A DNA stretch of 64,000 bases from Escherichia coli (GTDB taxonomy: Bacteria; Pseudomonadota; Gammaproteobacteria; Enterobacterales; Enterobacteriaceae). The notes beneath the pieces are model-generated. The model made no database searches. It saw nothing but the letters and a program-made list of their open reading frames with translations, and was not told the origin of the DNA. The first letter of the stretch is position 1. Every line of letters begins with the position of its first letter. This document shows positions 1-44,106 of this stretch, one piece after another. The position numbers and the translations under genes were made by a program. The DNA lies in NCBI RefSeq assembly GCF_003991155.1, contig NZ_CP031293.1; one strand, written 5' to 3'.

Positions 1-360
<360 letters not shown>

Positions 361-1713
361 TTAATGTGCTTTTTTAAGCTCTGCGATGCAGTCGGCAAAA
401 TTTGGCAACCATTTCTCGTGCGCCAGAATCATCTCGCGTGCCAGCAGCTCAGCATCGCGATCGGAATGCACCAACGGACTAAGGTTTAGGGCCAGTAACA
501 CATCGTTAAACTCTCCGCTAAGTGCGGCGTTGCTGGCAGCAATCTCGAAGCCTTTAATGGTGTGAATCAGCCCCATCACTTTATCATCGAAATGCGTAAT
601 GCGCGGATGTGGCGTCGCGCCATCGCGCCCCAGCGTACAGGTCATTTCTACCGCCCAGTCTGCCGGAATATTATCAATATGCCCATGATGCGGGATATTA
701 ACGTAATGTTCAGCTTGCTTGTCGTTGTAGATAGCGTTGATCACTTCGCACGCTGCATCAGAGTAATAAGCCCCACCGCGCTGTTCCAGTTCTTTCGGCT
801 TAACTTTCAACTCCGGGTTTTTATATAGCTCAAAAAGTTGTTTCTCGACTTTCTGTACTACCTGCGCTCGTGCGCCGCCTTTGTAGTATTCGCCCATTTC
901 AATAGCCAGCATCTCTTTTTGCTTGAAGTAATAAAGCAAATAAGAACACGGCAACAGATTCAGAGAACGAATTAAGCCTTCGCTAAATGGCAGATCGAAA
1001 ATATTTTTAACGCCAGATGCTTTTAACTGCCCGGATGCCACACCATCAAGCAATTCGGCAAAGCGTGATTTGCCATTTACCAGCACATCTTTAATGAACA
1101 CCATATGGTTGAGGCCGAACAGATCGATAGATAAATCATCGCTGTCTTTCAGCATCAGAACATCGCGAATAAACATCTTCATGCCTATCGGAATATTACA
1201 CACGCCGATAAAGCGTTTAAATCCGGTATGACGATAAACGGCTTCAGTGACCATTCCCGCCGGGTTAGTGAAGTTAATCACCCATGCATTCGGACAAAGT
1301 TCTTCGACATCTTTTACGATGTCAAAAATCACCGGAATGGTACGCAGACCTTTAAACAGACCGCCCGCGCCGTTAGTTTCCTGACCAAGATAACCATGAC
1401 TTAATGGAATACGTTCATCCAGTTCGCGCGCCGGTAATTGGCCTACGCGCAGTTGGGTAGTAACGAAATCAGCATCTTTCAATGCTTCGCGGCGATCCAG
1501 CGTTTTATAAAGCTTCATCGGGACGCCAGCGTTATCAATCATCCGTTGGCAGAGATCAAAAATAATATCCAGTTTCTCTTTACCATCTTCGACATCCACC
1601 AGCCATAATTCGCTGACCGGCAATTCGTGATAACGCTTAATAAATCCTTCCAGTAACTCCGGGGTATAGCTGCTCCCGCCACCAATAGTGACGACTTTTA
1701 ATTTCTGGCTCAT
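361..1713 (-). CDS. chbF: 6-phospho-beta-glucosidase (GH4 family, NAD/Mn-dependent)
   Basis: 450-aa ORF, N-terminal KVVTIGGGSSYTPEL Rossmann motif typical of GH4; matches ChbF. Confidence 0.95.
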   Translation of the reverse strand: MSQKLKVVTIGGGSSYTPELLEGFIKRYHELPVSELWLVDVEDGKEKLDIIFDLCQRMIDNAGVPMKLYKTLDRREALKDADFVTTQLRVGQLPARELDERIPLSHGYLGQETNGAGGLFKGLRTIPVIFDIVKDVEELCPNAWVINFTNPAGMVTEAVYRHTGFKRFIGVCNIPIGMKMFIRDVLMLKDSDDLSIDLFGLNHMVFIKDVLVNGKSRFAELLDGVASGQLKASGVKNIFDLPFSEGLIRSLNLLPCSYLLYYFKQKEMLAIEMGEYYKGGARAQVVQKVEKQLFELYKNPELKVKPKELEQRGGAYYSDAACEVINAIYNDKQAEHYVNIPHHGHIDNIPADWAVEMTCTLGRDGATPHPRITHFDDKVMGLIHTIKGFEIAASNAALSGEFNDVLLALNLSPLVHSDRDAELLAREMILAHEKWLPNFADCIAELKKAH

Positions 1714-2140
1714 AATTTCTCCCTTCAGTACAGAATACTGATATCTGGCATATCTGCCCCCCCGGACATAAATAATCCAGCAACAGGACAGATATGTGAA
1801 TTGTCAGGTATAACGACTTACTGATTAAATTCAGTCAATTTCTTACGATAGCTCTTAGGCGTAAAGGACGTTAATTTCTTAAACGTTTTAATAAACAAAC
1901 TCGGGCTACTATAACCGGCCTCAAACGCAATATCCGTCACTGAATAGTTGGTCATTTCCAGTTGTTTTTTGGCAAAATTAATACGGATTTCATTAATAAT
2001 CTGCATTGGCGTTTTGCCATAATATCGTTGAGTCGCTCGCGTCAAATATTCCTGTGATTTGGCTGACAACGTCACCATATTCTCCAGCGCCGATTCACTA
2101 AACTGCTCTTTATCATGCATCTTTTCTACCGTACTTTTCA

Positions 2141-2149
2141 GCCACTGCG
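2141..2149. repeat. IS1 target-site duplication, left copy (GCCACTGCG)
   Basis: Identical 9-mer directly abuts both IS1 ends. Confidence 0.85.
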
Positions 2150-2204
2150 GGTGATGCTGCCAACTTACTGATTTAGTGTATGATGGTGTTTTTGAGGTGC
2201 TCCA

Positions 2205-2480
2205 GTGGCTTCTGTTTCTATCAGCTGTCCCTCCTGTTCAGCTACTGACGGAGTGGTGCGTAACGGCAAAAGCACCGCCGGACATCAGCGCTATCTCTGC
2301 TCTCATTGCCGTAAAACATGGCAACTGCAGTTCACTTACACCGCTTCTCAACCCGGTACGCACCAGAAAATCATTGATATGGCCATGAATGGCGTTGGAT
2401 GCCGGGCAACCGCCCGCATTATGGGCGTTGGCCTCAACACGATTTTCCGCCATTTAAAAAACTCAGGCCGCAGTCGGTAA
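2205..2480 (+). CDS. insA: IS1 InsA (transposition inhibitor / N-terminal part of InsAB' transposase)
   Basis: 91-aa [43 protein letters not shown]..., zinc-finger Cys pairs. Confidence 0.9.
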
Positions 2481-2902
2481 CCTCGCGCATACAGCCGGGC
2501 AGTGACGTCATCGTCTGCGCGGAAATGGACGAACAGTGGGGATACGTCGGGGCTAAATCGCGCCAGCGCTGGCTGTTTTACGCGTATGACAGGCTCCGGA
2601 AGACGGTTGTTGCGCACGTATTCGGTGAACGCACTATGGCGACGCTGGGGCGTCTTATGAGCCTGCTGTCACCCTTTGACGTGGTGATATGGATGACGGA
2701 TGGCTGGCCGCTGTATGAATCCCGCCTGAAGGGAAAGCTGCACGTAATCAGCAAGCGATATACGCAGCGAATTGAGCGGCATAACCTGAATCTGAGGCAG
2801 CACCTGGCACGGCTGGGACGGAAGTCGCTGTCGTTTTCAAAATCGGTGGAGCTGCATGACAAAGTCATCGGGCATTATCTGAACATAAAACACTATCAAT
2901 AA
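2399..2902 (+). CDS. insB: IS1 InsB reading frame (expressed as InsAB' fusion by -1 frameshift)
   Basis: 167-aa ORF in -1 frame relative to insA; coordinates are the open frame as given in the ORF track. Confidence 0.85.
2452..2461 (+). other. IS1 programmed -1 ribosomal frameshift motif (TTTAAAAAAC)
   Basis: A6C slippery run near the end of insA where the insB frame overlaps in -1. Confidence 0.7.
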
Positions 2903-2917
2903 GTTGGAGTCATTACC

Positions 2918-2926
2918 GCCACTGCG
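2918..2926. repeat. IS1 target-site duplication, right copy (GCCACTGCG)
   Basis: Identical to 2141..2149. Confidence 0.85.
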
Positions 2927-3444
2927 GTACATCATCAATCACCTGTTCTTCGCGGTAATGACGTAAACGGTTAATGACATAAAAAGTAACCATCTCAACA
3001 AACTCTTCCAGCCCTGTTTCGCGGAAATTCAATGAAGAAATCACTGTTTCCACATAGGTGAGAAAAGCGTTATTGGTCCGGTATACCTGCGAAGCTACAA
3101 AGCAATAAGGCAACAACGGCAGGTAATGCTGCTCAAAAAAGCGTTTACTGATCCCAACGTTCAATATGCGCGTGGCACCAAACTCATAAAAACTTTGATG
3201 GTGCGAACCTAACGGAATAAAAACAAAATCGCCCCGTTCCAGTAACACGCGCTTACCGTTAATCTCCTGGAAATAACGCCCGGTTAATACCAGAGTAAAT
3301 TCATAATAGTCGTGCTGATGCAGTCCGCTGATACTCTCAGTTTTGTTATAGATAAACACATGGAAATTTTTGCCATTAAACAACTGCTGTTCTCGGGCGG
3401 TGGCAATTTCCGGCGCGTTAATCACTGGCTGCATCATCGACTCC

Positions 3445-3795
3445 TTATGCCTTCAGTTTTTCATGAAGCTCAATTAATTCAGTAATCAGTTCACGCGCAA
3501 GCATGGACGTCATTAAATGATCCTGAGCGTGGACCAGCACCAGACTCACTTTCATCTTACCTTCGCCCGCATCGCCTTCAATCAGTTTCGTCTGTACCAG
3601 ATGCGCTTCATTCAATGCCATCCGTGACTGATCCATCATGGCTTTTGCTGCGGCAAAATCGCCCTGCTTCGCCTGTTTCAGTGCCGCATACGCCAGGCTG
3701 CGCGCTTGTCCGGAGTTGATGATAAGCCCCATCACCACTTCTTCCAGCTCTTCAGCTTCTGTTTGCGTATCGGGAATGTTATCGAGATCCATCAT
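3445..3795 (-). CDS. chbA: PTS chitobiose-specific EIIA component
   Basis: 116-aa ORF, lactose/cellobiose-family IIA; position between chbR and chbC. Confidence 0.9.
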
Positions 3796-3845
3796 ACATC
3801 GTTCCTCTCTTTTCTTACCGGCACGATTACCCGTACCGGCATCGA

Positions 3846-5204
3846 TTAAAATTTCAGGGCGTTAGCGATATCTTCTTCGCTCTCTTCTTTATCAATCGCG
3901 TTTTGTGCTTTGTTAGCGACCACAACAAAGGGCAGATAAATTAACGTTGCGATACCAAGGTTGAAGAGTGCAACCAGCAATGCGGCGACGCTACCGTTGG
4001 TGTTAAAGAAGGCTCCCAGACCGGTTGGCATGGTCCACGGTGCAATATTGGTCACCGGAGGAATAATGCCCATGTAGTACGCTGCCAGGGTGATTGCCGC
4101 CAGAATCGGTTGTACCAGTACAAACGGGATAAACATCACCGGGTTCATGATAATTGGCAGACCAAACAGAATCGGTTCGTTAATCTGGAAGATGCCGGAC
4201 GGCAGCGCCAGTTTTGCCACCTGACGATAATCAGCACGGCGAGAGGCGATAAAGATAGCCAGGATCAGACCTAAAGTCGCACCACTGCCCCCAAGGAAAA
4301 TAAAGGAGTCCAGCATCGGCTTGGCCCAGATATGGAAGGTCTTACCGGCTGCCAGCGCCGCTTCGACGGAACCATATTGCTGATAGGTCGCGATATTTTC
4401 CAGCGCCCACGGCGTCATAATGCCGTTGTCCAGTGCGGTCAGCGCCAGCGCACCATGAATACCGAAGAACCAGAGCAGTGGAACAAAGATCACATAGGCC
4501 CAGCCCACCACGCTACCCAACGATGCCAGTGGGGTTGAGATGGTATCCATAATGATCTGATGGAAGTTGGTGCCCCAGGTATTCAACGCCCAGGCAATAA
4601 TCCCCATCACGGAAAGAATAATAAAGCCGGGAATTAAAGCCGAGAAGGAACGCGATACTGAAGCAGGTACGCTATCGGGCAATTTAATGACCCAATTGCG
4701 GCGGACAATAAAGGTAAACATTTCTGCCACCACCAGGCCAATAATAATCCCGGAGATGATATTCGCCCCACCTAACCAGTTTGCGCCAACCGCATAGGCC
4801 TCACCGACACTATATGGGGTGACGGTCATAAATGCTGCAACGGATAACAACCCAGCCGCCAGCGCATCGACTTTACGCTCTTCTGCCAGCGCCATGCCAA
4901 TAAAGAACGGTGCCATTAAAGACATTATCCCTAATGTTCCGTTATATACGTTGCCGCCAATACCTTTCAGACCATTAAGTGTTTCAATGGTTGAGGCATC
5001 CAGGCGAATACCTAAGGAATAAAAAAACGACCCCTCCCCAAAGCTTAGAAAAACGTTGTTAATTAATACAAACATGGCCCCCGCAAGGGTTAACGGCATT
5101 AAGCGAATAAAGCCATTTTTGATTGCATTAACGTGTGGCTGCTTTCCTATTTTAACTGCAAAAGGGAGGAGTACCTTTTCAAGCGATGCAATAACATTAC
5201 TCAT
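3846..5204 (-). CDS. chbC: PTS chitobiose-specific EIIC permease
   Basis: 452-aa polytopic membrane protein, PTS EIIC lactose/cellobiose family. Confidence 0.9.
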
Positions 5205-5287
5205 AGAAAAATACCCTTAAAAACCGCAATTTAAATATTGCGGTATTGATTTATGAAATAACTCTTTGACGGGAAAATTTAAAAAAA

Positions 5288-5608
5288 TTAATTTGCTGCG
5301 GCTTTTTTAATCGCTGCAACCGCAGCCTTAAGCACGCCTAAACCATCGACTTTGCCATAAAGCAACGAGTCAATTACTTCAACCGGTTTGTTGGGTAACA
5401 AACGCTGGATTTCGGGCAACATATAAGCAATCTGCGGCCCTAATAACACGACATCGGCATTCTGACCTTTTTCACCAGCCAGTGTTTCCGGAAATGCTTC
5501 AATAATGACCGGAACTTCATATTTTTCTGCCTGTGCGCGCATTTTTGATACCAGTAAAGAGGTAGACATGCCCGCAGAACAAAACAGATAAATGTGTTTC
5601 TTTTCCAT
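5288..5608 (-). CDS. chbB: PTS chitobiose-specific EIIB component
   Basis: Start placed at internal Met ([20 protein letters not shown]...), phospho-Cys motif CSAGMSTS; ORF-track start 5647 is an upstream in-frame extension. Confidence 0.85.
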
Positions 5609-5790
5609 AAAACTGCCCTCATCGACGATTATCTGTAAGCCAGACACTCCGCAAGCCTTAACCTGCTTCCATGCTCTGGGTAACTTGCGAAACCAACATG
5701 ACTTTTTTTGTGGCTGAAAGGAGTATACGGTATAGACCTGAGCAATAGTATTTCTTTGACCTTATAAATTGTCTCTCCTTGACCTGCGGT

Positions 5791-5806
5791 TATGACCCTC
5801 TTCACA
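5791..5806 (-). promoter_or_regulatory. candidate CRP site in chb promoter region (TGTGAAGAGGGTCATA on minus strand)
   Basis: Matches TGTGA-N6-TCACA with one mismatch; the chb operon is known to be CRP-dependent; exact site not verified. Confidence 0.35.
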
Positions 5807-5848
5807 TTTCGGGCAAATAATTCGCGAAGATAATTAAGAACTCAGGCC

Positions 5849-5876
5849 AAAAAAAACCGGCGCAATGGCCGGTTTC
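5849..5876 (-). terminator. rho-independent terminator downstream of osmE (bidirectional hairpin ACCGGC-GCAATG-GCCGGT with flanking A/T runs)
   Basis: GC-rich stem followed by U-run on the minus-strand transcript. Confidence 0.6.
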
Positions 5877-5906
5877 CGTTGTAACTCAAGCTTTCAGGCG
5901 AAGTGA

Positions 5907-6245
5907 TTACTTCGCAGCCTGTGGATCAGTGTCGTATTCAGCACAGGTCTGATAACCGGAGTTGATGACATGTCCGGTATCATCTAACGCGACAAAGTAG
6001 GTTTCTGCTTTACCATCACGTTGACCCAGGATGTAGGTCTGGCAAGTACCACGAGCATGGATCATGCTCACTTCAGACGAAGGTTTACCCGCAATTTGTG
6101 CAACCTGCGCCCGGCTCATGCCTTTTTTGACGTCTTTCACCACAGGCTGTACAAACTGGTCTTTGGTACGATCATAAGCCGTACAACCCGCCAGCATGGT
6201 TAATACCGCCGCTGCACTCAGAATTCCTGCCATATTCTTGTTCAT
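5907..6245 (-). CDS. osmE: osmotically inducible lipoprotein OsmE
   Basis: 112-aa ORF with signal peptide and lipobox (LAGC). Confidence 0.9.
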
Positions 6246-6446
6246 ATTCCGTCCTCTTGTTTATCAGCGTGTTAGATAAGCCTGGAATACATTGGGCGCT
6301 TTTTCAAGCCCGTGAACGAAACGGCTCCGCTTTCAGAGGATTCCTGTATGACGTTTTAACCACCATTCAGCCCGCTGTCGCTTGTCGTTTCAGTAGCAAC
6401 GGGTTAGCTTTAAGGAAGTTTTGTCTTTTCTGTCTGGAGGGGTTCA

Positions 6447-7274
6447 ATGACATTGCAACAACAAATAATAAAGGCGCTGGGCGCAAAACCGCAGATTAAT
6501 GCTGAAGAGGAAATTCGTCGTAGTGTCGATTTTCTGAAAAGCTACCTGCAAACTTATCCGTTCATTAAATCACTGGTGCTAGGGATCAGCGGCGGTCAGG
6601 ACTCCACGCTTGCCGGTAAGCTGTGCCAGATGGCGATTAATGAGCTGCGCCAGGAAACCGGCAACGAATCACTGCAATTTATTGCCGTACGCCTGCCCTA
6701 TGGTGTTCAGGCCGACGAACAAGATTGCCAGGATGCCATTGCCTTTATTCAACCGGATCGCGTATTAACCGTTAATGTCAAGGGCGCGGTATTGGCCAGC
6801 GAACAGGCGCTGCGCGAAGCGGGTATTGAATTAAGTGATTTTGTCCGTGGCAATGAAAAAGCGCGTGAGCGGATGAAAGCACAATATAGCATTGCGGGTA
6901 TGACCAGCGGTGTCGTGGTGGGCACCGATCATGCAGCAGAAGCCATTACCGGATTCTTCACTAAATATGGTGACGGCGGTACAGACATTAATCCACTGTA
7001 TCGTCTCAACAAACGTCAGGGTAAACAGTTACTGGCAGCATTAGGTTGCCCGGAACACCTTTATAAGAAAGCGCCAACTGCCGATCTGGAAGATGATCGC
7101 CCTTCTCTGCCAGATGAAGTGGCACTCGGCGTGACCTATGACAATATCGACGACTATCTGGAAGGGAAAAACCTACCTGAACAGGTCGCCAGAACAATAG
7201 AGAACTGGTATCTGAAAACCGAACATAAACGCCGTCCGCCAATTACCGTTTTCGATGATTTCTGGAAGAAGTAA
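6447..7274 (+). CDS. nadE: NH3-dependent NAD+ synthetase
   Basis: 275-aa ORF with SGGQDS PP-loop ATP pyrophosphatase motif. Confidence 0.95.
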
Positions 7275-7310
7275 TAATTTGCACATATTGGTTTGTGCGA
7301 AAAAGAGTAC

Positions 7311-35394: not shown

Positions 35395-36753
35395 TTAATT
35401 CACCTCAGAAATCTCTTCCAGCGACACCTTCCGCGTTTCGATGCCAAAAATGGAGAGAACCAGCGCACAGAGCACTAACATGACACCAAGCACCATAAAC
35501 ACCGTGATTGACCCATAATGCGTTAATAGTGCCGCAACGCCATAGGGCGTGAAGACTGCGACGATCCGTCCGACGGCATTAACGAAACCCGAACCACGCA
35601 GGCGTAAATGCGTTGGCCAAAGTTCCGGGATATAAACCGCCGACGCGAAGCACACATACATGTATAAAAAGAAGATCATCACCAGGCCATAGATTAAAAT
35701 CGCCCACTCTGTAGTCTGAATTGAATAGATATAGCCTAACACAGCAATAATAATAAGTAAGGCAGAGCCAAATAATCGACGAGGAAAATGATCAATAATT
35801 AATGCCGCAATAAATATCCCTACCGGAGCGCCAATCATAATAACAGCGGTCATTAATATTGATTTATCAACATCAATGCCGGAGTTAACAAATATGGTCG
35901 GTATCCATACGGTGATGGTATAAAGCGAAATGTTCATTGCAATTAAAACAGTAATCGCGACTAATGTACGTCGTAACATTTCCCCTTTAAACAGGAGCCA
36001 GAAGGTACCCTTGATTACCTTAACCTTGCTGTTGCTCTGGTTCAAAGTAAGCGGGGGTAAACGAATACTCTTCTCTCTTTCAATTTGCTGCTCTACTTCA
36101 CGAAGTTGGCTTTCTGCACCTGCGATTTGCCCTTTCCCCGCCAACCATCGAGGCGACTCAATAAAGTATTTACCTGAGAGAAACCAGGCTAACAGTATGC
36201 CAATACCACCCAGCAGAAACATTATCCGCCAACTAAAAAAAGCGATAACCACCACGCCTATCGCCGCAGACAACATGGGCGACCAGTTACCGACAAATGA
36301 GAGCCGCGCGGACCATTTTCCACGCACCGTCGCGGGGATAAACTCCGTAAATGAGGCATAGCCAACCATAATCAGCGCCCCCATTCCTGTTCCCATCAGG
36401 AAGCGAAAGAAGATGAGCCAGTACATATCAGGGACAAAAGCGGCCCCTGTTGCCGCAATACCGACGATGAGAAGATTTATGCGAAACGCCCTGCGCCGCC
36501 CAAAGTAGTCACCAATAAACCCACCGGTAAGAGAGCCGATGAAATAACCAAACATTAATGCCGAGGTAAAGGCGGCATTGAGGAGATTATTTGACCATCC
36601 ATTGCTTACCAGCTTTGCTAAAACAACATTGCCTGAATAACTCAAAAAACCCGTTAATAACAGACTAAAGCTTATAATACCAAATATACGATAATGAAAC
36701 CGGGCCAAAGGCAAGCGGTCCAGTCTTGCGCCAATTTGATCATATTGTTCCAT
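35395..36753 (-). CDS. ydjE: MFS transporter
   Basis: 452-aa, about 12 TM helices, sugar-porter-like GR[RK] motifs. Confidence 0.8.
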   Translation of the reverse strand: MEQYDQIGARLDRLPLARFHYRIFGIISFSLLLTGFLSYSGNVVLAKLVSNGWSNNLLNAAFTSALMFGYFIGSLTGGFIGDYFGRRRAFRINLLIVGIAATGAAFVPDMYWLIFFRFLMGTGMGALIMVGYASFTEFIPATVRGKWSARLSFVGNWSPMLSAAIGVVVIAFFSWRIMFLLGGIGILLAWFLSGKYFIESPRWLAGKGQIAGAESQLREVEQQIEREKSIRLPPLTLNQSNSKVKVIKGTFWLLFKGEMLRRTLVAITVLIAMNISLYTITVWIPTIFVNSGIDVDKSILMTAVIMIGAPVGIFIAALIIDHFPRRLFGSALLIIIAVLGYIYSIQTTEWAILIYGLVMIFFLYMYVCFASAVYIPELWPTHLRLRGSGFVNAVGRIVAVFTPYGVAALLTHYGSITVFMVLGVMLVLCALVLSIFGIETRKVSLEEISEVN

Positions 36754-36869
36754 TAGGTGCCTCGGATTTGCTAAAAAGGTAGCAATTGCGGCAAATTCAC
36801 TTGCCGCATCTTTATCATCATTTTATTTCCAGGCGCAGGAACAAATAATATTGACAACGTGTGCTTAAA

Positions 36870-37628
36870 TTACCACACCAGCTGGATATTATTGTCTTTG
36901 CAAAATGCTATCCACTCTGCACCCGGTGATTTATCAGTTATTATGTAATTAATATGACTAAAGTCAGCTAACTGGACAAAAGCTTTGCGATCAAACTTAG
37001 AGTGATCAACCAATAACGCAACTTCTGTCGCCTGACGGATCATTGTCTTTTTGATTTCAGCTTCCGCTTCGTTAGAGTCCAGCGCGCCGCTGTTAATATC
37101 AAGACCTTTACAACTCATTACCATGATATCGACATGGTAGCGGCTGATGATCTCTTTAGTAATTCTTCCTTGCAGGGAAAGTGTATTTTTGTTTAGTTCC
37201 CCCCCCGTTGAAACGACTTTAATTTCTGACTGAGCCAGAACATGAATCGCTTCCGCCGAGTTGGTTAGCAACGTCAGGTCACTACGGTCCTGTAACAATT
37301 TGAGCAATTCCATTACGGTACTACTGGAATCGGCTGCCATGGTGGTTTTATTGTCGATAAAGGGTAGTGCCTTGCGTGCAATAAGCTGCTTCTCTTCATA
37401 AAACGATGAAGCGCGCTTATAAAAATGGATATTCTCCGTCAACATCGCTGTATTTAAAACAGCACCACCATAGGTTCTGGTCAAAAAGCCTTCATCTTCC
37501 AGCTTCTCAAGATCGCGGCGAATGGTTTCTTCGGTTACCTGAAAAATCCCACTCAAATTTGAGACTGTCACCTTTTTATCGTTGGCAACCATTTGCTTAA
37601 TTGCCTGAATCCTGTCTTTTGCCGCCAC
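36870..37628 (-). CDS. ydjF: DeoR-family transcriptional regulator
   Basis: 252-aa ORF, N-terminal HTH plus DeoR C-terminal sugar-phosphate sensor domain. Confidence 0.8.
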   Translation of the reverse strand: MAAKDRIQAIKQMVANDKKVTVSNLSGIFQVTEETIRRDLEKLEDEGFLTRTYGGAVLNTAMLTENIHFYKRASSFYEEKQLIARKALPFIDNKTTMAADSSSTVMELLKLLQDRSDLTLLTNSAEAIHVLAQSEIKVVSTGGELNKNTLSLQGRITKEIISRYHVDIMVMSCKGLDINSGALDSNEAEAEIKKTMIRQATEVALLVDHSKFDRKAFVQLADFSHINYIITDKSPGAEWIAFCKDNNIQLVW

Positions 37629-37764
37629 GATTACACCCCTGTATCTTTTTACATCACATTAGCGCGATTATCGCATAACCGATGTTTACTTTCAAAATAA
37701 CCTGTTTGAATCACAGATTTTCATCACAGTTTTCACAGAAACAGAGGTGAATCGTGTTGAGTAT

Positions 37765-38745
37765 TTAACGCTCCAGGGCCTCTGCCATTTCCCTCATCAA
37801 TGTTGCGTCTGCATCCGATAAGTTGATATTCAATGCCGCGACATTTTCGCGTACCTGTTCCGGTGCAGTAGCCCCACTAAGAATGGAGATTAAATCACTC
37901 TGTTTTAATATCCACGCCAGTGCCAGAGTGGGAATTGTGCACTGATAACGAGCACAGAGTGGCTGCCACTGTTCAAGCATATCAATCACTTTCAGCATGT
38001 TTTCACGCTGGAACCAGACTTTATTTGCCCGAGCGCCACCCGGAACGTAATCACGAGTGATGGTACCGGTCAACAATCCCTGCTCTAGCGGGGAATAAAC
38101 CTGTACCACAATGCCATTATCACGACATAGCGGCAGCAGTTCGCTTTCCAATGCCCGGTCGAGGATACTGTATTTCGCCTGAATAATATCCAGTTCACCA
38201 TATTGCAGATACTCGCGGATATGGTCAGCATCGACGTTAGCAGCGCCTATAGCGCGAATTTTTCCTTCGGCCTTTAACTCATTGAGCACTGCGACAGTTT
38301 CAGCTATCGGCGTAAAAAATGGCGGCACCGACTGCCAGTGCGTCATGTAGATATCGATGTAATCAATACCCAGACGTTGCAAGCTGGCTTCTACCTCTTC
38401 GCGGATAGATTCCGGGGAAAGGTTTTTATACAACTGCCGATCGCCAACTTTGTTGAATAAACTCCCTTTTCGTTCCCAGACAATGCCGCATTTGGTTTCT
38501 ACTACAACCTGTTCACGGGGCAGTTTTTTTAACGCCTGACCGACGATAACTTCACTATTGCCAAAGTTATATCCTGGCGCAGTATCAATCAGATTAATGC
38601 CACAACGATGGGCTTCAAGAATCGTATCAATACATATTTGCCGATCGAGATCGCCATTCCATGCAGGACCGCCGCCAATGGCCCATGTCCCCAACCCCAT
38701 TCGCGAAAGCGTAATATCCGTTGTGCCTAAAGGTATCTTTTTCAT
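37765..38745 (-). CDS. ydjG: aldo-keto reductase
   Basis: 326-aa AKR-family ORF. Confidence 0.8.
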   Translation of the reverse strand: MKKIPLGTTDITLSRMGLGTWAIGGGPAWNGDLDRQICIDTILEAHRCGINLIDTAPGYNFGNSEVIVGQALKKLPREQVVVETKCGIVWERKGSLFNKVGDRQLYKNLSPESIREEVEASLQRLGIDYIDIYMTHWQSVPPFFTPIAETVAVLNELKAEGKIRAIGAANVDADHIREYLQYGELDIIQAKYSILDRALESELLPLCRDNGIVVQVYSPLEQGLLTGTITRDYVPGGARANKVWFQRENMLKVIDMLEQWQPLCARYQCTIPTLALAWILKQSDLISILSGATAPEQVRENVAALNINLSDADATLMREMAEALER

Positions 38746-38754
38746 TTGCCTTCA

Positions 38755-39702
38755 TTATCCTTCGTATTCTTCCAGCAATTGTTCGACCAGCTTTCTGTTT
38801 TTTACGCCGGTGGTGGCACCGACGCTTAGAACCGAGATAGCCGCCGTTGCATTGGCAAAGCGTGCGCATTCACGCAGATTTTTGCCTTCTAACAGTGCCG
38901 CAATAAAACCTGAAGCAAAGTTATCGCCCGCGCCAATGGTGTCGATGGCGGTTATTCCTGCGACCGCCGGCACCTTCATCGTCATGTCACCACGCTTGAT
39001 AAAGCAGCCGTCTTTACCCGTTTTAATCACCACCGTTTTTACGCCGCACGCAAGAAAGCAGTCAGCAATTTCATCCAGTGTCTCTTTCCCGGTGAGTAAT
39101 TTTGCCTCGGCAAAATTAGGAAACAGATAATCGACATAACTCAATGCTTCGCAAATATCATCCAGCGTTTCATTCAACCGCGGTTTGATCATATCGGCAC
39201 AGATAATCATCTGCCGGGCTTTAGCTTGCGTAAAAATTTCTGTTAGCGCTTTACCATCCAATAGTGGACTGTTGAAAATACTGGCCAGTGATAATAATTT
39301 CGCCTGGGAAAACCGCGCAAAATCAACATCGTCAATATTCAATTTCCACAGACTGCCGTTACGGTTTGTGACAAACGTCCGCTCGCCATCCTCCGTCACC
39401 AGTCCAACGTTAATAGAGGTATCTATGTTGACGTCCTGCTTCAGGCTTTGAATATCAATATTCTCTTTGCGGCAATGGTCGAGAATAAATTGCCCGGCGG
39501 CATCTTTACCAATACGACTCATTAATGCTGTGCGATGGCCCAGACGAGAAATAATTGTTGCTTCATTTATTGCATCACCCCCGGTGGTCATTGCGATTCT
39601 TTCAAGAGGATAAGAATCCACATCAAAGATATTTTTACTGACCGGTTGCAATGGAATATCAACAATAGCGGCACCTATACAAATAACGTCGAGATTATCC
39701 AT
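38755..39702 (-). CDS. ydjH: PfkB/ribokinase-family sugar kinase
   Basis: Start at MDNLDVICIGAAIVD; GAGDNF motif near C-terminus; 315 aa. Confidence 0.8.
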   Translation of the reverse strand: MDNLDVICIGAAIVDIPLQPVSKNIFDVDSYPLERIAMTTGGDAINEATIISRLGHRTALMSRIGKDAAGQFILDHCRKENIDIQSLKQDVNIDTSINVGLVTEDGERTFVTNRNGSLWKLNIDDVDFARFSQAKLLSLASIFNSPLLDGKALTEIFTQAKARQMIICADMIKPRLNETLDDICEALSYVDYLFPNFAEAKLLTGKETLDEIADCFLACGVKTVVIKTGKDGCFIKRGDMTMKVPAVAGITAIDTIGAGDNFASGFIAALLEGKNLRECARFANATAAISVLSVGATTGVKNRKLVEQLLEEYEG

Positions 39703-39706
39703 ATCA

Positions 39707-40543
39707 TTATTCCGCTTTGCCATCAGAACCGAACAGTTTAATTTTTTCCAATGCCCGTTCTTTTACAGCTTTACGTACTTCACGTTCTAAATGCAGGAAA
39801 GGCTGATCCTGGTTTTCTTTCACTGCTACCATTGCGGCCTGACAGAGCTCCGTATGAATGTTGATTTTCGCAATACCCAACGAAATTGCAGTTTTAATGT
39901 CGGCATCACTGATCCCCGATGCGCCGTGCAAAACCAGCGGAACAGAAACAGCATCGCGTACGCCTTTGACGACCTCAAAGTTCAATTGTGGCTCTGACGT
40001 ATAAACCCCATGCTGGTTGCCGATGGCGACAGCCAATGAGTCACAGCCCGTACGTTCAACAAATTCAGCCGCCTGGTCAGGATCGGTATAGTGATAGCCC
40101 GCCAGCGCTTCCTCATAAACGGTTTCATTACCGACATGCCCTAATTCCGCCTCTACCGGAATACCCAGCGGATGGAAGAAATCAACAGCCTCTTTGGTTA
40201 AACGAATATTTTCTTCGAAATCAAATGCGGAAGCATCACGCATTAATGAATTCATACCATGAGTCCAGGCGTTATGAATAATTTCCATACTCCGACCATG
40301 ATCCCAATGAGTTATTACCGGCACCGTTGCTTTTTTTGCCATTGATACCATCATGTGAGAGAAATCTTCAAATGAGGTGTTCCCGACAAAACCTGTACCA
40401 AAAGAAATAATAACCGGTGATTTCGCTTCTTCGGCTGCGTCGATAACGCCCATCAACATTTCTGCATTCCATACGTTAAAATGGGCAATTGCATAATGTT
40501 TATTTGTGGCATCGTTTTCCCAATATCTGATATCTGCGAGCAT
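39707..40543 (-). CDS. ydjI: class II (metal-dependent) aldolase, FBA/tagatose-bisphosphate aldolase-like
   Basis: 278-aa ORF. Confidence 0.8.
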   Translation of the reverse strand: MLADIRYWENDATNKHYAIAHFNVWNAEMLMGVIDAAEEAKSPVIISFGTGFVGNTSFEDFSHMMVSMAKKATVPVITHWDHGRSMEIIHNAWTHGMNSLMRDASAFDFEENIRLTKEAVDFFHPLGIPVEAELGHVGNETVYEEALAGYHYTDPDQAAEFVERTGCDSLAVAIGNQHGVYTSEPQLNFEVVKGVRDAVSVPLVLHGASGISDADIKTAISLGIAKINIHTELCQAAMVAVKENQDQPFLHLEREVRKAVKERALEKIKLFGSDGKAE

Positions 40544-40563
40544 ATTCTGTTCTCCCGTATTAA

Positions 40564-41607
40564 TTAATCGCTAATTTTAATAACGCCTTTAATAATGTCG
40601 CGTTTGTTGTTAACCGACTCTTCAAATGCCTGTTGTACATCCTGATAATCGTAAATATGTGTCACCATCGATTTCACATCTAATCGCCCTGAGGAAATAG
40701 CTTCAATCGTGACCGGATAACGATTGGCATAGCGGAATACTGTCTGGATAGTGACTTCGCGATTGATTTTGAGGAAATTGATTGCCGAATCGCCCGGTAC
40801 AGTACCAACAATCATAATTTTACCGCCGCGCATTACCAGATAAGGTGCCTGTTTAACGGTGACCGCAGAACCCGCTGTTTCGAAAACAATATCTGCGCCC
40901 ATTTCTTCGGTAAATTGCTGACAGCGTGCAATAGTGTCTTCTTTTGCGCCGTTAATAACCACTGTCGCGCCGAGCTGTTCCGCCATTGTCAGACGTTTTT
41001 CCAGCACATCAACGACGGCAATATCCGTAGCTCCCAGGCATTTGCACGCTTGCAACGTCATCAAACCAATACAACCCGCTCCCAGAATAATTATCTTCTT
41101 ACCCGGTTTAACATCTGCCAGCATCGCGGCATGCATCCCGACTGCGGCAGGCTCCACCAGCGCCCCTTCCATCGTGTCCATATTGTCGGGCAGTTTGTAA
41201 GTAAAGCTCTCCGGATGACACAGATAGTGCGTTAATGCGCCGCGGTAGTTAGGTTGTGTCGCCATAAAATCAACGTCCGGGCAGATGTTATATTTGCCTT
41301 CCAGACAGTAACGACAGTGACCGCAAGGAACGCCAGGTTCGATATTTACCCGATCCCCCGCTTTAAATTTGCGCACACGGCTTCCCACAGCCACAACCGT
41401 CCCGGCGCATTCATGACCCAGGCCAATTTCTTGATTTGGGTCTTTAGGCGGAATAAACGGGCCTGATTCGAAACCATGTACATCTGAACCACAAATACCG
41501 ACATATTCCACTTTAATCAAAACTTCATCTTCTTTAGGCACAGGTATTTCTGCTGAAATAATTTTCATTGTGCCCGGCACCTGCAATATTGCTTTTGAAT
41601 TTTTCAT
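40564..41607 (-). CDS. ydjJ: Zn-dependent alcohol/polyol dehydrogenase (MDR family)
   Basis: 347-aa ORF; GHECAG zinc motif and GAGCIG Rossmann motif. Confidence 0.8.
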   Translation of the reverse strand: MKNSKAILQVPGTMKIISAEIPVPKEDEVLIKVEYVGICGSDVHGFESGPFIPPKDPNQEIGLGHECAGTVVAVGSRVRKFKAGDRVNIEPGVPCGHCRYCLEGKYNICPDVDFMATQPNYRGALTHYLCHPESFTYKLPDNMDTMEGALVEPAAVGMHAAMLADVKPGKKIIILGAGCIGLMTLQACKCLGATDIAVVDVLEKRLTMAEQLGATVVINGAKEDTIARCQQFTEEMGADIVFETAGSAVTVKQAPYLVMRGGKIMIVGTVPGDSAINFLKINREVTIQTVFRYANRYPVTIEAISSGRLDVKSMVTHIYDYQDVQQAFEESVNNKRDIIKGVIKISD

Positions 41608-41623
41608 TTTGAATCCACCAGTA

Positions 41624-43003
41624 TTATTTATTGACTACTGCATCAATACTTAAACTTTCAACGGAGACACCTTTCGTTTCAATTCCAATGGTGGTGATAG
41701 CAATTGCGACAATAATTGAAACAGCCCCCAGAAGAATAAAGACTCCCGTTACGCCATAACTACTGAGCAGCACTGCAACGGCATAAGGTGCGGCAATACC
41801 ACTGATTCGCCCTACCGCATTCGCCAGACCGGAGCCACGTAATTTGGCCTCTGTCGGCCAGATTTCAGGGACATACACTGCCGAGGCATAGCAAACGTAC
41901 ATATAGACGAAAGTAATCAGGAAGAAACCAATCAGCGTTATGAGCAACATACTGGTTTGCAGTGAATAGATATATCCGAGCACCGCAATCAGGATTAATA
42001 GCCCCACACCCATTGTTTTACGCGGAATTTTATCCATCACCAGCATGGCAATAAATATACCAAATGGCGCACCAAACATACTCATGGTATTTAAAACAAT
42101 CGAGTCTTTTAAATTAATCCCCTGGGTCATGAATATTGTTGGCAACCAGTTAATTAGTGTGTACTGCACAACGTTCATGGCAATCAGCACACAAGAACCT
42201 AATATCACGCGTTTCAGTAATACTCCTGTCAGTAAGGCTGAATACGGCACCGCTTGTGGCGCTTTACCGTCATCAGCAATAACCACGGGCGGCAAAGGTT
42301 TTCCCGTCTGGCGTATGACGCCTTCTTCTATACTCCGCATGACTTTCTCGGCTTCCTGATACCGTCCGCGCGATTCCAGCCAGCGCGGGGATTCAGGAAA
42401 GTAGCGCCAGGCCAGCGCCGTAGCGATAAGCGACAATATTGCAGGGATAAGCAGTTGTACTCGCCAGTTCCACTCTGCACTAATCAGCGGCGTGAGTCCC
42501 ATCGCAATCAATGAACAGAGCGGATATGACCAGTTGCCAATAAAAGAAACCCGACTGGACCACGTTCCGCGATTTCTACCGGGCATATATTCGGTGAAAC
42601 CAGCAAACAGCGTCACCAGTAAAGCTCCCAGCCCAACGCCCATCACAAAACGGCAGGCAATAAGGAAATCCATATTCGGTGAAAAAGCACCGACCACCAT
42701 CGAGGCAATATGAATGGCCTCATAGAGGATGAACGCATTTCTGCGACCGGTTTTGTCACCGATGATGCCGCCAACCAGCGCACCGAGAAACATTCCGGCG
42801 GTCGTGATTGCTGAGAATGTGGCAGTGGTGGAATTATCTGTCCAGCCCAACGCTTTCAGCTGCGCGAGGATCAAGCCACCAACGGCATTACTCCAGCAGA
42901 CAAGCAAGCCAAACGCGACGATAGCAAACATTGACGAATGCCAGCGGCAATCCGGTAAGCGATCCAGCCGAGCACCACAATGCGGTTTTGTTATCTGTTC
43001 CAT
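41624..43003 (-). CDS. ydjK: MFS transporter
   Basis: 459-aa polytopic membrane protein, paralogous to ydjE. Confidence 0.8.
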   Translation of the reverse strand: MEQITKPHCGARLDRLPDCRWHSSMFAIVAFGLLVCWSNAVGGLILAQLKALGWTDNSTTATFSAITTAGMFLGALVGGIIGDKTGRRNAFILYEAIHIASMVVGAFSPNMDFLIACRFVMGVGLGALLVTLFAGFTEYMPGRNRGTWSSRVSFIGNWSYPLCSLIAMGLTPLISAEWNWRVQLLIPAILSLIATALAWRYFPESPRWLESRGRYQEAEKVMRSIEEGVIRQTGKPLPPVVIADDGKAPQAVPYSALLTGVLLKRVILGSCVLIAMNVVQYTLINWLPTIFMTQGINLKDSIVLNTMSMFGAPFGIFIAMLVMDKIPRKTMGVGLLILIAVLGYIYSLQTSMLLITLIGFFLITFVYMYVCYASAVYVPEIWPTEAKLRGSGLANAVGRISGIAAPYAVAVLLSSYGVTGVFILLGAVSIIVAIAITTIGIETKGVSVESLSIDAVVNK

Positions 43004-43029
43004 GCGATAACGCTCCTTCAGGAGAGTAG

Positions 43030-44106
43030 TTATTCATCAAAGTCGTAAGTCATGATCACTTTGATTGCGGTTTTATCGACCATCGCATCAAACCCTTCGC
43101 GCCATTGCGACAGGCCGATACGATGCGTGATCATCGGTTTGACTTTGATAGCGCCGCTGGCTAATAGCCTGATAGCGTTACGCCATGAGGTGGAGTCATA
43201 GGCCATATGCCCAATGATGCTTTTGTTCCAGGCGGTAATGTCATTAATCGAGAAATCAAGAGGTTTGAAGCCCATTCCAACGCGTACCACTTCCCCATTC
43301 GGGCGGAGCATTTCGATGGCTTGTTTCAATGCGATATTGGCACCGGAGCATTCAATCACCAGTCCCAGATTGTCTTTGCCACAAATTTGCTGGCAGCGCG
43401 CCACCACATCTTCGGTAGAACCATTTACTACTGCCGTCGCACCCAGTTCTTTTGCAACCGGGAAGCGGACCGCCACATCTTCTTGTAGACCAACGACGAC
43501 GATATTTACCGCCCCCATAATCCGCGCCATTTGTACGGAGAACAGCCCGAGTGGGCCAGTACCGATGACGACCACATCCTGACCAGGGAGGAATTTCGAT
43601 TGCTGCGCTATGGATTTGTAGGCATTACAGATAGGGTCAAGTACGGCTGCGTCCTCATAATCAACACCATCAGGGATTTCCCACAACGCATGACGATGAA
43701 TTTTGAGAATTTCACCAGGAACCAGACAATATTTGGAAAAACCACCGCCCCAGGTATTGTTATCCAGACCAAGGTTTACTTTTTCTGTACAACACAGAAA
43801 ATCACCTTGTTCACAGGCCGGACAAACGCCGCAGACGTGACCGCTGTTATCTGACACGACGCGTTGCCCCACTTTCCAGTCTTTGACTTTTTCACCAACC
43901 TGCGCAATACAACCTGCGAACTCATGGCCGCGGATAGAGTTAAACTCATCAGAACCGCTATCGACATTGTAGTGCTTCATGTCTGCGCCGCAGATTGCCG
44001 CGGCTTTAATTTCAATCACGACATCTTCCGGGCCACAAATGGGTTGTGGCACATCGATCATCTTGTAGCCGCCAAAGGCTTTGCCAAACCGAGCCAGTGC
44101 TTTCAT
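43030..44106 (-). CDS. ydjL: Zn-dependent alcohol/polyol dehydrogenase (MDR family)
   Basis: 358-aa ORF; GHEFAG zinc motif. Confidence 0.8.
   Translation of the reverse strand: MKALARFGKAFGGYKMIDVPQPICGPEDVVIEIKAAAICGADMKHYNVDSGSDEFNSIRGHEFAGCIAQVGEKVKDWKVGQRVVSDNSGHVCGVCPACEQGDFLCCTEKVNLGLDNNTWGGGFSKYCLVPGEILKIHRHALWEIPDGVDYEDAAVLDPICNAYKSIAQQSKFLPGQDVVVIGTGPLGLFSVQMARIMGAVNIVVVGLQEDVAVRFPVAKELGATAVVNGSTEDVVARCQQICGKDNLGLVIECSGANIALKQAIEMLRPNGEVVRVGMGFKPLDFSINDITAWNKSIIGHMAYDSTSWRNAIRLLASGAIKVKPMITHRIGLSQWREGFDAMVDKTAIKVIMTYDFDE

What the first reader, a model, noticed from the sequence alone, without database searches (positions are those of the whole stretch)
5609..5906. chb promoter region retains a CRP-like site although the regulator gene chbR is disrupted
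Seen directly: a TGTGA-N6-TCATA element (5791..5806) and direct-repeat-rich sequence upstream of chbB look intact. If ChbR is inactive (see the IS1 finding), expression would depend on whether NagC repression still holds. This is the typical setting in which Cel+/Chb+ suppressor mutations arise.
Basis: inference. Interest (0 to 1): 0.25.

Follow-up and report, generated by a model that had tools for sequence, protein, structure and literature searches.

The report
Known chb promoter, recent chbR::IS1
This is the ordinary, well-studied control region of the E. coli chitobiose operon; its CRP site is intact only because an IS1 element broke the activator gene chbR very recently, so the operon is probably just switched off.

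Summary
TGTGAAGAGGGTCATA sits at 5791-5806 on the minus strand, in the osmE-chbB intergenic region. It is identical to the site in K-12. TGTGA-N6-TCA lies at a fixed distance from the -10 box in 74 of 80 species with a chbB orthologue. Around it lies the whole known chbB promoter layout: two NagC operators 115 bp apart, two ChbR direct repeats (15/19 identical), a TATACT -10 and no usable -35.

chbR is split after codon 173 by a complete 768-bp IS1 with a 9-bp target duplication. This separates the cupin domain from the AraC-type DNA-binding domain.

That the site is retained carries no information. With IS1 removed in silico, 6,523 bp of the locus are 100% identical to a strain with intact chbR. 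Only 3 of 5,426 complete genomes carry this allele.

The most likely outcome is an operon that chitobiose cannot induce. The activator is lost, IS1 is probably polar on chbF/chbG, and the ChiX decoy is no longer induced.

The Cel+ comparison is not supported. Those mutants arise from IS insertions in the promoter region or from chbR point mutations.

IS1 insertions near chb (52 genomes) are no more frequent than at a matched control locus (73).

Already known; low interest.

The parts
5846..5875 (-). osmE intrinsic terminator: hairpin AAACCGGC-CATTGC-GCCGGTTT followed by a T-run
   Evidence: Inverted repeat I4 at 5854-5861 / 5868-5875. The RNA fold shows the hairpin. The consensus terminator scan did not report it.
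5816..5838 (-). Upstream NagC operator CTTAATTATCTTCGCGAATTATT, centre 5827
   Evidence: TT and AA at positions +/-5,6 and C at -11, the criteria given in PMC4288165. TT-N9-AA is kept in 65 of 75 species loci and forms a conserved block in alignment A2.
5791..5806 (-). CRP (CAP) site core TGTGAAGAGGGTCATA; the 22-mer is 5788-5809
   Evidence: Identical in K-12. Kept at a fixed distance from the -10 in 74 of 80 species. The centre is 82.5-84.5 bp upstream of the inferred start.
5767..5785 (-). ChbR direct repeat 1, AGGTCAAGGAGAGACAATT
   Evidence: Almost every position of the block is invariant in the 19-genus alignment. Kept at a fixed distance from the -10 (55 bp in 69 loci, 56 bp in one). 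15/19 identical to repeat 2.
5744..5762 (-). ChbR direct repeat 2, AGGTCAAAGAAATACTATT, overlapping the -35 position
   Evidence: The -35 candidates ACTATT, TACTAT, ATACTA and AATACT are all poor matches to TTGACA. Partly conserved across genera (GAAaTAc / GAATTATC).
5722..5727 (-). -10 hexamer TATACT; transcription start inferred near 5715
   Evidence: CGTATACT is invariant in 19 genera. The start site is inferred from the -10 position and was not measured.
5701..5723 (-). Downstream NagC operator CTCCTTTCAGCCACAAAAAAAGT, centre 5712, covering the inferred start
   Evidence: TT-N9-AA with C at -11. It lies 115 bp from the upstream operator, matching the spacing I recall from the Plumbridge & Pellegrini 2004 abstract. 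Kept in only 30 of 75 species loci.
5609..5715 (-). chbB 5' untranslated leader (about 107 nt) with Shine-Dalgarno GAGGG at 5616-5620
   Evidence: Conserved in Escherichia, Citrobacter and Salmonella. A hairpin is predicted, with weak covariation.
5288..5608 (-). chbB (PTS IIB), intact
5262..5273 (-). ChiX decoy site CCCGTCAAAGAG in the chbB-chbC spacer
   Evidence: Perfect complement of CTCTTTGACGGG in K-12 ChiX/sroB (RF00368). The decoy role is described in PMC4098024.
3445..5204 (-). chbC (3846-5204) and chbA (3445-3795), both intact
2913..3437 (-). chbR 5' fragment: residues 1-173 plus Arg, then a stop inside IS1; carries the cupin / AraC ligand-binding domain only
   Evidence: Cupin_2 1e-08, AraC_binding 6.3e-05. 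PGAP marks the same fragment in CREC-544 as an incomplete pseudogene.
2150..2917 (+). IS1 (IS1B-type), 768 bp, transposase on the plus strand; 9-bp duplication GCCACTGCG at 2141-2149 and 2918-2926
1818..2149 (-). chbR 3' fragment. The ORF 1818-2120 (100 aa, from Met181) holds the complete AraC-type HTH domain but has no identified promoter.
   Evidence: HTH_18 4e-21. No minus-strand promoter-like site at the IS1 edge.
361..1713 (-). chbF (celF), intact, downstream of IS1

Best explanation
5609-5906 is the standard E. coli osmE-chbB intergenic region. It holds the osmE terminator and the chbB promoter. Reading towards chbB, the promoter carries a NagC operator, the CRP site, two ChbR direct repeats (the second over the -35 position), a TATACT -10, and a second NagC operator over the start site.

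Normally NagC and ligand-free ChbR repress. Chitobiose-activated ChbR together with cAMP-CRP activates once GlcNAc-6-P has removed NagC.

In this strain a recent IS1 insertion after codon 173 separates the ChbR sensor domain from its DNA-binding domain. The cis elements are untouched but the required activator is gone.

The expected result is an operon that chitobiose cannot induce, with at most weak basal transcription from a promoter lacking a -35. chbF and chbG are further cut off by IS1 polarity. The ChiX decoy in the chbB-chbC spacer is not induced, so chitoporin de-repression should also fail.

The CRP site is therefore a working-order site with no partner, kept only because no time has passed.

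Shown: sequence anatomy, conservation, the gene split, and how recent the insertion is. Inferred: the start site, actual protein binding, and the expression phenotype.
For: - **CRP site.** Motif at 5791-5806, unique in the window, identical in K-12.
- **Conservation.** The CRP half-sites, ChbR repeat 1 and the -10 keep fixed spacing in 74 of 80 species.
- **NagC operators.** Both meet the TT/AA +/-5,6 rule of PMC4288165 and lie 115 bp apart.
- **ChbR repeats.** 15/19 identical; 2 of 2000 shuffles reach this.
- **No -35.** All candidate hexamers are poor.
- **IS1.** Complete, with a 9-bp duplication.
- **Gene split.** The N-terminal fragment has only the cupin domain and the C-terminal fragment only the HTH domain.
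- **Annotation.** PGAP marks both fragments as pseudogenes in CREC-544.
- **Recency.** The healed locus is 100% identical over 6,523 bp to a chbR-intact strain. The exact junction occurs in 3 of 5,426 genomes.
- **Literature.** ChbR is a dual repressor-activator and is needed for induction; NagC and CAP co-regulate (PMC3551598, PMC4098024, PMC13267602). chbB is among the target genes of CRP-mediated feed-forward loops tabulated in PMC6121374.
- **ChiX decoy.** Its complementarity to ChiX was verified.
Against: - No expression data exist for this strain.
- The primary paper (Plumbridge & Pellegrini 2004) is not held. The footprinted positions, the 115-bp spacing and the chbR-null phenotype rest on my memory of its abstract and on secondary reviews.
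- The start site is inferred. The CRP centre (-82.5 to -84.5) therefore cannot be placed on a helical face with certainty.
- The downstream NagC operator is kept in only 30 of 75 species.
- IS1 polarity on chbF/chbG is general knowledge, not tested here. A promoter-like site upstream of chbF (1800-1772) could give some independent expression.
- nagC lies outside the window and was not examined.
Confidence: 0.83

Rival explanations
1. With ChbR gone its repressor function is lost, so the operon is controlled by NagC and CRP alone. It becomes expressed whenever NagC is relieved by GlcNAc or a nagC mutation. This would be a step towards Cel+/Chb+ suppressors.
For: ChbR does contribute to repression without inducer (PMC3551598). 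The CRP site and the -10 are intact. With a constitutive promoter, a chbR deletion gave the best growth on cellobiose (bioRxiv 10.1101/086900).
Against: - ChbR is the required activator.
- The promoter has no usable -35, and CRP sits about 83 bp upstream. By analogy with the ara, rha and mel promoters, CRP at that distance acts only as a co-activator (inference).
- Reported Cel+ routes are insertions in the regulatory region or chbR point mutations, not chbR nulls (PMC13267602).
- The result needed the native promoter to be replaced.
- IS1 lies between chbA and chbF. The phospho-beta-glucosidase needed for growth is therefore downstream of a probably polar insertion.
Confidence: 0.1
2. A split regulator. 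The 100-aa ORF (1818-2120, Met181-Gln280) is expressed as a free AraC-type DNA-binding domain. It binds the ChbR repeats and, with CRP, activates the operon without any sugar signal. Isolated C-terminal domains of some AraC-family proteins can do this.
For: The insertion falls in the interdomain linker. The downstream ORF holds the complete HTH domain (HTH_18 4e-21). A second IS1 site at chbR nt 535-543 (codons 179-181), also in the linker region, was hit by three different IS1 variants.
Against: - No promoter-like site reads out of the IS1 end towards the ORF.
- The ribosome-binding site is weak (GGTAG, read).
- Other IS1 sites in chbR lie at codons 62-65, 112-115 and 223-226, and the last of these destroys the HTH domain. 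There is no consistent selection for a domain split.
- IS1 density around chb is no higher than at a control locus (52 against 73 genomes).
- chbF and chbG would still sit downstream of IS1.
Confidence: 0.03
3. The TGTGA-N6-TCATA match is a chance motif with no function.
For: A single match in 64 kb is only modestly unlikely: 8 of 100 shuffles gave at least one.
Against: It is kept at a fixed distance from the -10 in 74 of 80 species across many genera, while the neighbouring spacer bases vary. It lies in the promoter that the literature says CAP regulates. chbB appears in a published table of CRP feed-forward-loop target genes.
Confidence: 0.02

Closest known systems
E. coli K-12 chbBCARFG promoter (chbBp), regulated by NagC, ChbR and CAP (Plumbridge & Pellegrini 2004)
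   Same: Same locus and same layout. The CRP core, both NagC operators, ChbR repeat 2 and the -10 are base-for-base identical to K-12.
   Different: There are six SNPs in the 298 bp. Three lie beside the osmE terminator, one between the CRP site and repeat 1, one inside repeat 1 (G at 5773, where K-12 has A and other genera have G), and one in the leader. The trans-acting activator gene is broken by IS1.
Cel+ activating mutations of the cryptic cel/chb operon (Parker & Hall 1990; Kachroo et al. 2007, as summarised in PMC13267602)
   Same: Both involve an insertion sequence at the chb locus.
   Different: Cel+ insertions lie upstream of the transcription start and weaken NagC and ChbR binding, or chbR carries gain-of-function point mutations. 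Here IS1 is inside chbR, the promoter is wild type, and the allele is a loss of function.
CRP as co-activator with AraC-family regulators (araBAD, rhaBAD, melAB)
   Same: A distal CRP site sits next to tandem repeats for an AraC-family activator, and the proximal repeat overlaps a weak -35.
   Different: chbBp also has two NagC operators that bracket the whole region. The dependence of CRP on ChbR is inferred from these promoters and was not tested here.
IS1 gene disruptions in dispensable E. coli loci
   Same: A 768-bp element with a 9-bp duplication in an AT-rich target (chbR is 41% GC). The same sites are hit repeatedly.
   Different: Nothing distinctive. The matched ydjF control region carries IS1 in 73 genomes, against 52 for chb.

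Membership tests
CRP (CAP) binding site | 16-bp core matching TGTGA-N6-TCACA with a strong half-site | tested here: met
   TGTGAAGAGGGTCATA has one mismatch. The left half with its flank, AAATGTGA, is perfect.
CRP (CAP) binding site | Conserved in orthologous promoters at a fixed position | tested here: met
   74 of 80 species loci, at a fixed distance from GTATACT (78 bp in 73 loci, 79 bp in one).
CRP (CAP) binding site | Centre on the activating face (near -61.5, -71.5, -82.5 or -92.5) | tested here: inconclusive
   The centre is at -82.5 to -84.5, depending on a start site inferred from the -10 and not measured.
CRP (CAP) binding site | cAMP-CRP binds, and expression depends on crp | not testable with these tools
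   Secondary literature says CAP regulates chb. The primary paper is not held.
NagC operator | Quasi-palindrome with TT at -6,-5 and AA at +5,+6 (PMC4288165) | tested here: met
   Both 5838-5816 and 5723-5701 meet it.
NagC operator | C or G at positions +/-11 in high-affinity sites | tested here: inconclusive
   Both sites have C at -11 but T at +11. The paper notes that these positions need not be palindromic.
NagC operator | Paired operators that allow cooperative repression | tested here: met
   The centres 5827 and 5712 are 115 bp apart (read). The match to the published spacing rests on my memory of the abstract.
Functional ChbR (AraC/XylS family regulator) | One polypeptide with an N-terminal cupin/ligand domain and a C-terminal double HTH domain | tested here: not met
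   The domains lie on separate fragments, split by IS1 after codon 173. Healed in silico, the gene equals the intact 280-aa protein of strain 2016C-3878.
IS1 | 768 bp, terminal inverted repeats, insA/insB transposase, 9-bp target duplication | tested here: met
   Annotated as IS1B with a programmed frameshift in identical strains.
Cel+ activating allele of chb | Insertion in the regulatory region upstream of the start, or a chbR point mutation that changes inducer recognition | tested here: not met
   The promoter region is 100% identical to a wild-type strain. chbR carries a disrupting insertion, not a substitution.

The most novel reading that the evidence does not exclude
IS1 cut ChbR exactly in its interdomain linker. 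The free 100-aa DNA-binding domain (ORF 1818-2120) could be expressed and act with CRP as a signal-independent activator, making chbBCA constitutive rather than silent. A weaker variant is that repeated natural inactivation of chb is adaptive, for example through the phage N4 resistance that a 2025 preprint reports for chbR, chbC and chbF knockouts.
Probability: 0.04. Interest if true: 0.4.

Novelty: already known. Interest (0 to 1): 0.08.

Why it matters
It matters little. The cis elements are the textbook chbB promoter, and the IS1 allele is a recent, rare loss of function of the kind common in dispensable E. coli loci.

The practical value is for annotation. This strain, like CREC-544, CUVET16-465 and EC0585, should be predicted unable to induce chitobiose use, and probably unable to de-repress the ChiP chitoporin through the ChiX decoy.

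The cross-genus footprint also gives a sequence-only map of the NagC, CRP and ChbR sites that agrees with the published model.

Tried and rejected
- **Primary literature.** Plumbridge & Pellegrini 2004, Verma & Mahadevan 2012 and Parker & Hall 1990 are not held. A full-text search for the site sequence found nothing.
- **Promoter and terminator scan.** It found no minus-strand chbB promoter, consistent with the missing -35. It also missed the obvious osmE terminator.
- **Rfam.** No family matched in the whole window.
- **Selection on a domain split.** I tested whether IS1 insertions in chbR cluster in the linker. They do not. Sites lie at chbR nt 185-193, 336-344, 512-520, 535-543 and 669-677.
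- **IS1 enrichment at chb.** Rejected. 19 + 33 = 52 genomes carry IS1 near chb, against 50 + 23 = 73 for the GC-matched ydjF region.
- **Structured leader RNA.** A hairpin is predicted, but only 2 of 18 pairs show compensatory change, so this is not convincing.
- **Apparent identical site.** The opposite-orientation search seemed to show IS1 at the same position in other strains. Mapping showed that site is 23 bp away, at nt 535-543.

Full report
**Where we are**

The window is E. coli chromosome. Running leftwards on the minus strand are osmE (5907-6245), chbB (5288-5608), chbC (3846-5204) and chbA (3445-3795). Then comes a 174-codon chbR fragment (2913-3437), an insertion, a 100-codon ORF (1818-2120), and chbF (361-1713). 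The finding's coordinates 5609-5906 are exactly the osmE-chbB intergenic region.

**Checking the observation**

On the chb strand the sequence TGTGAAGAGGGTCATA occupies 5806-5791.
- It is the only TGTGA-N6-TCATA in the window. About 0.09 are expected, and 8 of 100 shuffles gave at least one.
- It is one mismatch from the CRP core.

On motif statistics alone this is weak evidence. Conservation is what settles it.

I fetched the chbB upstream region from 80 species. In 74 of them TGTGA-N6-TCA lies at a fixed distance upstream of an invariant GTATACT (78 bp in 73 loci, 79 bp in one). The block GTCAA..AGA.ACAATT is likewise fixed (55 bp in 69 loci, 56 bp in one). Only Kosakonia and five Aeromonas loci lack the CRP pattern. 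In the 19-genus alignment the bases between these blocks vary freely.

**Anatomy of the region, read towards chbB**

| Element | Coordinates | Evidence |
|---|---|---|
| osmE terminator hairpin and T-run | 5875-5846 | |
| NagC operator 1, CTTAATTATCTTCGCGAATTATT, centre 5827 | 5838-5816 | |
| CRP site | 5806-5791 | |
| ChbR repeat 1 | 5785-5767 | |
| ChbR repeat 2 | 5762-5744 | |
| -10 TATACT | 5727-5722 | |
| NagC operator 2, CTCCTTTCAGCCACAAAAAAAGT, centre 5712 | 5723-5701 | |
| Leader of about 107 nt, with Shine-Dalgarno GAGGG at 5620-5616 | 5715-5609 | |

- The two ChbR repeats share 15 of 19 bases at 23-bp spacing. Only 2 of 2000 shuffles reach that.
- The possible -35 hexamers (ACTATT, TACTAT, ATACTA, AATACT) are all poor.
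- Both NagC operators meet the one rule stated in an accessible paper: TT and AA at positions +/-5,6, with C at -11 (PMC4288165).
- Operator 1 is kept in 65 of 75 species loci and operator 2 in 30 of 75.
- The operator centres are 115 bp apart.

This agrees with what I recall of the Plumbridge & Pellegrini 2004 abstract: two NagC sites 115 bp apart, the start inside the downstream one, and ChbR binding two 19-bp direct repeats between them. That paper is not held, so this agreement rests on memory, not on a check.

The start site (about 5715) is inferred from the -10. It puts the CRP centre at -82.5 to -84.5.

**Comparison with K-12**

The 298 bp differ from MG1655 at six positions.
- Three lie beside the osmE terminator.
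- One lies between the CRP site and repeat 1.
- One lies inside repeat 1 (G at 5773).
- One lies in the leader.

At the repeat-1 position the window carries the base shared by the other genera, and K-12 is the odd one out. The CRP core is unchanged.

**The regulator gene**

A complete 768-bp IS1 occupies 2150-2917, with its transposase on the plus strand. It is flanked by the 9-bp duplication GCCACTGCG. It sits after chbR codon 173.
- The upstream fragment (173 residues, then Arg and a stop) matches only the Cupin_2 and AraC_binding families.
- The downstream ORF from Met181 matches only HTH_18 and HTH_AraC.
- PGAP marks both pieces as incomplete pseudogenes in strain CREC-544, which has the same allele.

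So the sensor and the DNA-binding domain are physically separated, and no intact ChbR can be made.

**Why 'retained although disrupted' carries no information**

With IS1 and one copy of the duplication removed in silico, window 1-7300 aligns to strain 2016C-3878 over 6,523 bp with no mismatch and no gap. The healed chbR equals that strain's intact gene. Relatives identical over 25 kb of the window (30000-54999), such as MRY15-117, LWY24 and 1517k, have no IS1 in chbR. The exact junction occurs in 3 of 5,426 complete genomes. The insertion is therefore very recent, and an unchanged promoter is what one expects.

**Likely consequence**

Accessible reviews agree on the following.
- NagC and ligand-free ChbR repress.
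- Induction needs a chitobiose signal through ChbR and a GlcNAc-6-P signal through NagC.
- CAP also takes part (PMC3551598; PMC4098024; PMC13267602).
- chbB appears in a published table of target genes in CRP-mediated feed-forward loops (PMC6121374).

The activator is missing, the -35 is absent, and the CRP site is about 83 bp upstream. I therefore infer, by analogy with araBAD, rhaBAD and melAB, that CRP alone gives at most weak transcription. IS1 is classically polar, so chbF and chbG are probably further reduced. A promoter-like site at 1800-1772 leaves some doubt about that.

The chbB-chbC spacer carries CCCGTCAAAGAG at 5273-5262. This is the exact complement of CTCTTTGACGGG in ChiX, which I located in K-12 as Rfam sroB. 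This decoy is made from the chbB promoter. Loss of induction should therefore also block ChiX titration and ChiP de-repression (mechanism from PMC4098024; its application to this strain is inference).

**The Cel+ comparison**

The review read here says Cel+ arises in two ways: by insertions upstream of the start that weaken NagC and ChbR binding, or by chbR mutations that let ChbR respond to cellobiose. Neither applies. The promoter is wild type and chbR is null. One preprint found a chbR deletion to be best for cellobiose growth, but only after the native promoter had been replaced by a constitutive one.

**Following the IS1 lead**

IS1 lies near chbR in 19 genomes in the window's orientation and in 33 in the other orientation. 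Mapping eleven of these alleles gave five sites in chbR.

| chbR nt | Strains |
|---|---|
| 185-193 | AHB18 |
| 336-344 | H32 |
| 512-520 | this allele |
| 535-543 | cM2a and L6-21 (IS1A), CAVP888, 50EVAW and QDFD216 (IS1X2) |
| 669-677 | PCP06101, 09A22CPO026, H1 |

Other genomes carry IS1 in chbC or chbF.

Two sites were hit by three different IS1 variants each, which points to target hot spots. The sites do not cluster in the linker, and one destroys the HTH domain, so there is no sign of selection for a split protein.

As a control I built the same chimeric query around ydjF, a regulator in a dispensable sugar cluster with similar GC content. It returned 50 + 23 = 73 genomes, against 52 for chb. 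IS1 is not enriched at chb.

**Verdict**

The thing itself is the known chbB promoter next to a recent, ordinary IS1 knockout of its activator. It is already known and of low interest.

Noticed in passing
window 2141-2149 / 2918-2926; loci L083, L085, L086, L089, L091-L096: chbR has recurrent IS1 target sites. chbR nt 535-543 was hit by IS1A, IS1X2 and a third variant. Nt 669-677 was hit by three variants in both orientations. These look like independent events at identical 9-bp targets. Overall IS1 density is no higher than at a matched control locus.
   Followed up: yes
window 5773 (minus-strand G; K-12 has A): Inside ChbR repeat 1 the window carries GAGAGACAATTT, the base shared by the other 17 sequences in the 19-genus alignment. 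K-12 MG1655 alone has GAGAAACAATTT. The laboratory reference may have the slightly deviant ChbR site.
   Followed up: partly
window 5262-5273 (minus strand): The ChiX decoy CCCGTCAAAGAG in the chbB-chbC spacer is intact and exactly complementary to K-12 ChiX. It depends on the chbB promoter, so the chbR knockout should also prevent chitoporin (chiP) de-repression.
   Followed up: partly
window 5633-5683 (minus strand), chbB leader: The leader of about 107 nt is strongly conserved in Escherichia, Citrobacter and Salmonella and folds into a hairpin. Only 2 of 18 pairs show compensatory change. Other genera have different leaders of 69-139 nt.
   Followed up: partly
locus L090 6647-8004 (strain CREC-544): CREC-544 shares the chbR::IS1 allele and is also annotated with a frameshifted chbC. 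chbC is intact in the window. This is either further decay or an assembly error.
   Followed up: no
window 1772-1800 (minus strand): A promoter-like site, TTCACA-17-GATTAT, lies in the chbR-chbF spacer. It could give chbF/chbG some expression independent of the chbB promoter and of IS1 polarity.
   Followed up: no
window 5846-5875: The consensus terminator scan reported nothing here, although the osmE hairpin with eight T's is plain in the sequence and in the RNA fold. This is a false negative of that scan.
   Followed up: yes
chb operon generally (literature): A 2025 preprint (10.1101/2025.09.29.679331) reports that chbR, chbC and chbF knockouts in K-12 resist phage N4, confirmed by complementation. 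This is a possible selective reason for natural loss of chb, and it has not been tested in wild strains.
   Followed up: no
window 35395-44106: The ydjE-ydjL sugar cluster, used here as a control, carries IS1 within about 1.4 kb of ydjF in 73 of 5,426 genomes. It is another frequent IS1 target region.
   Followed up: partly
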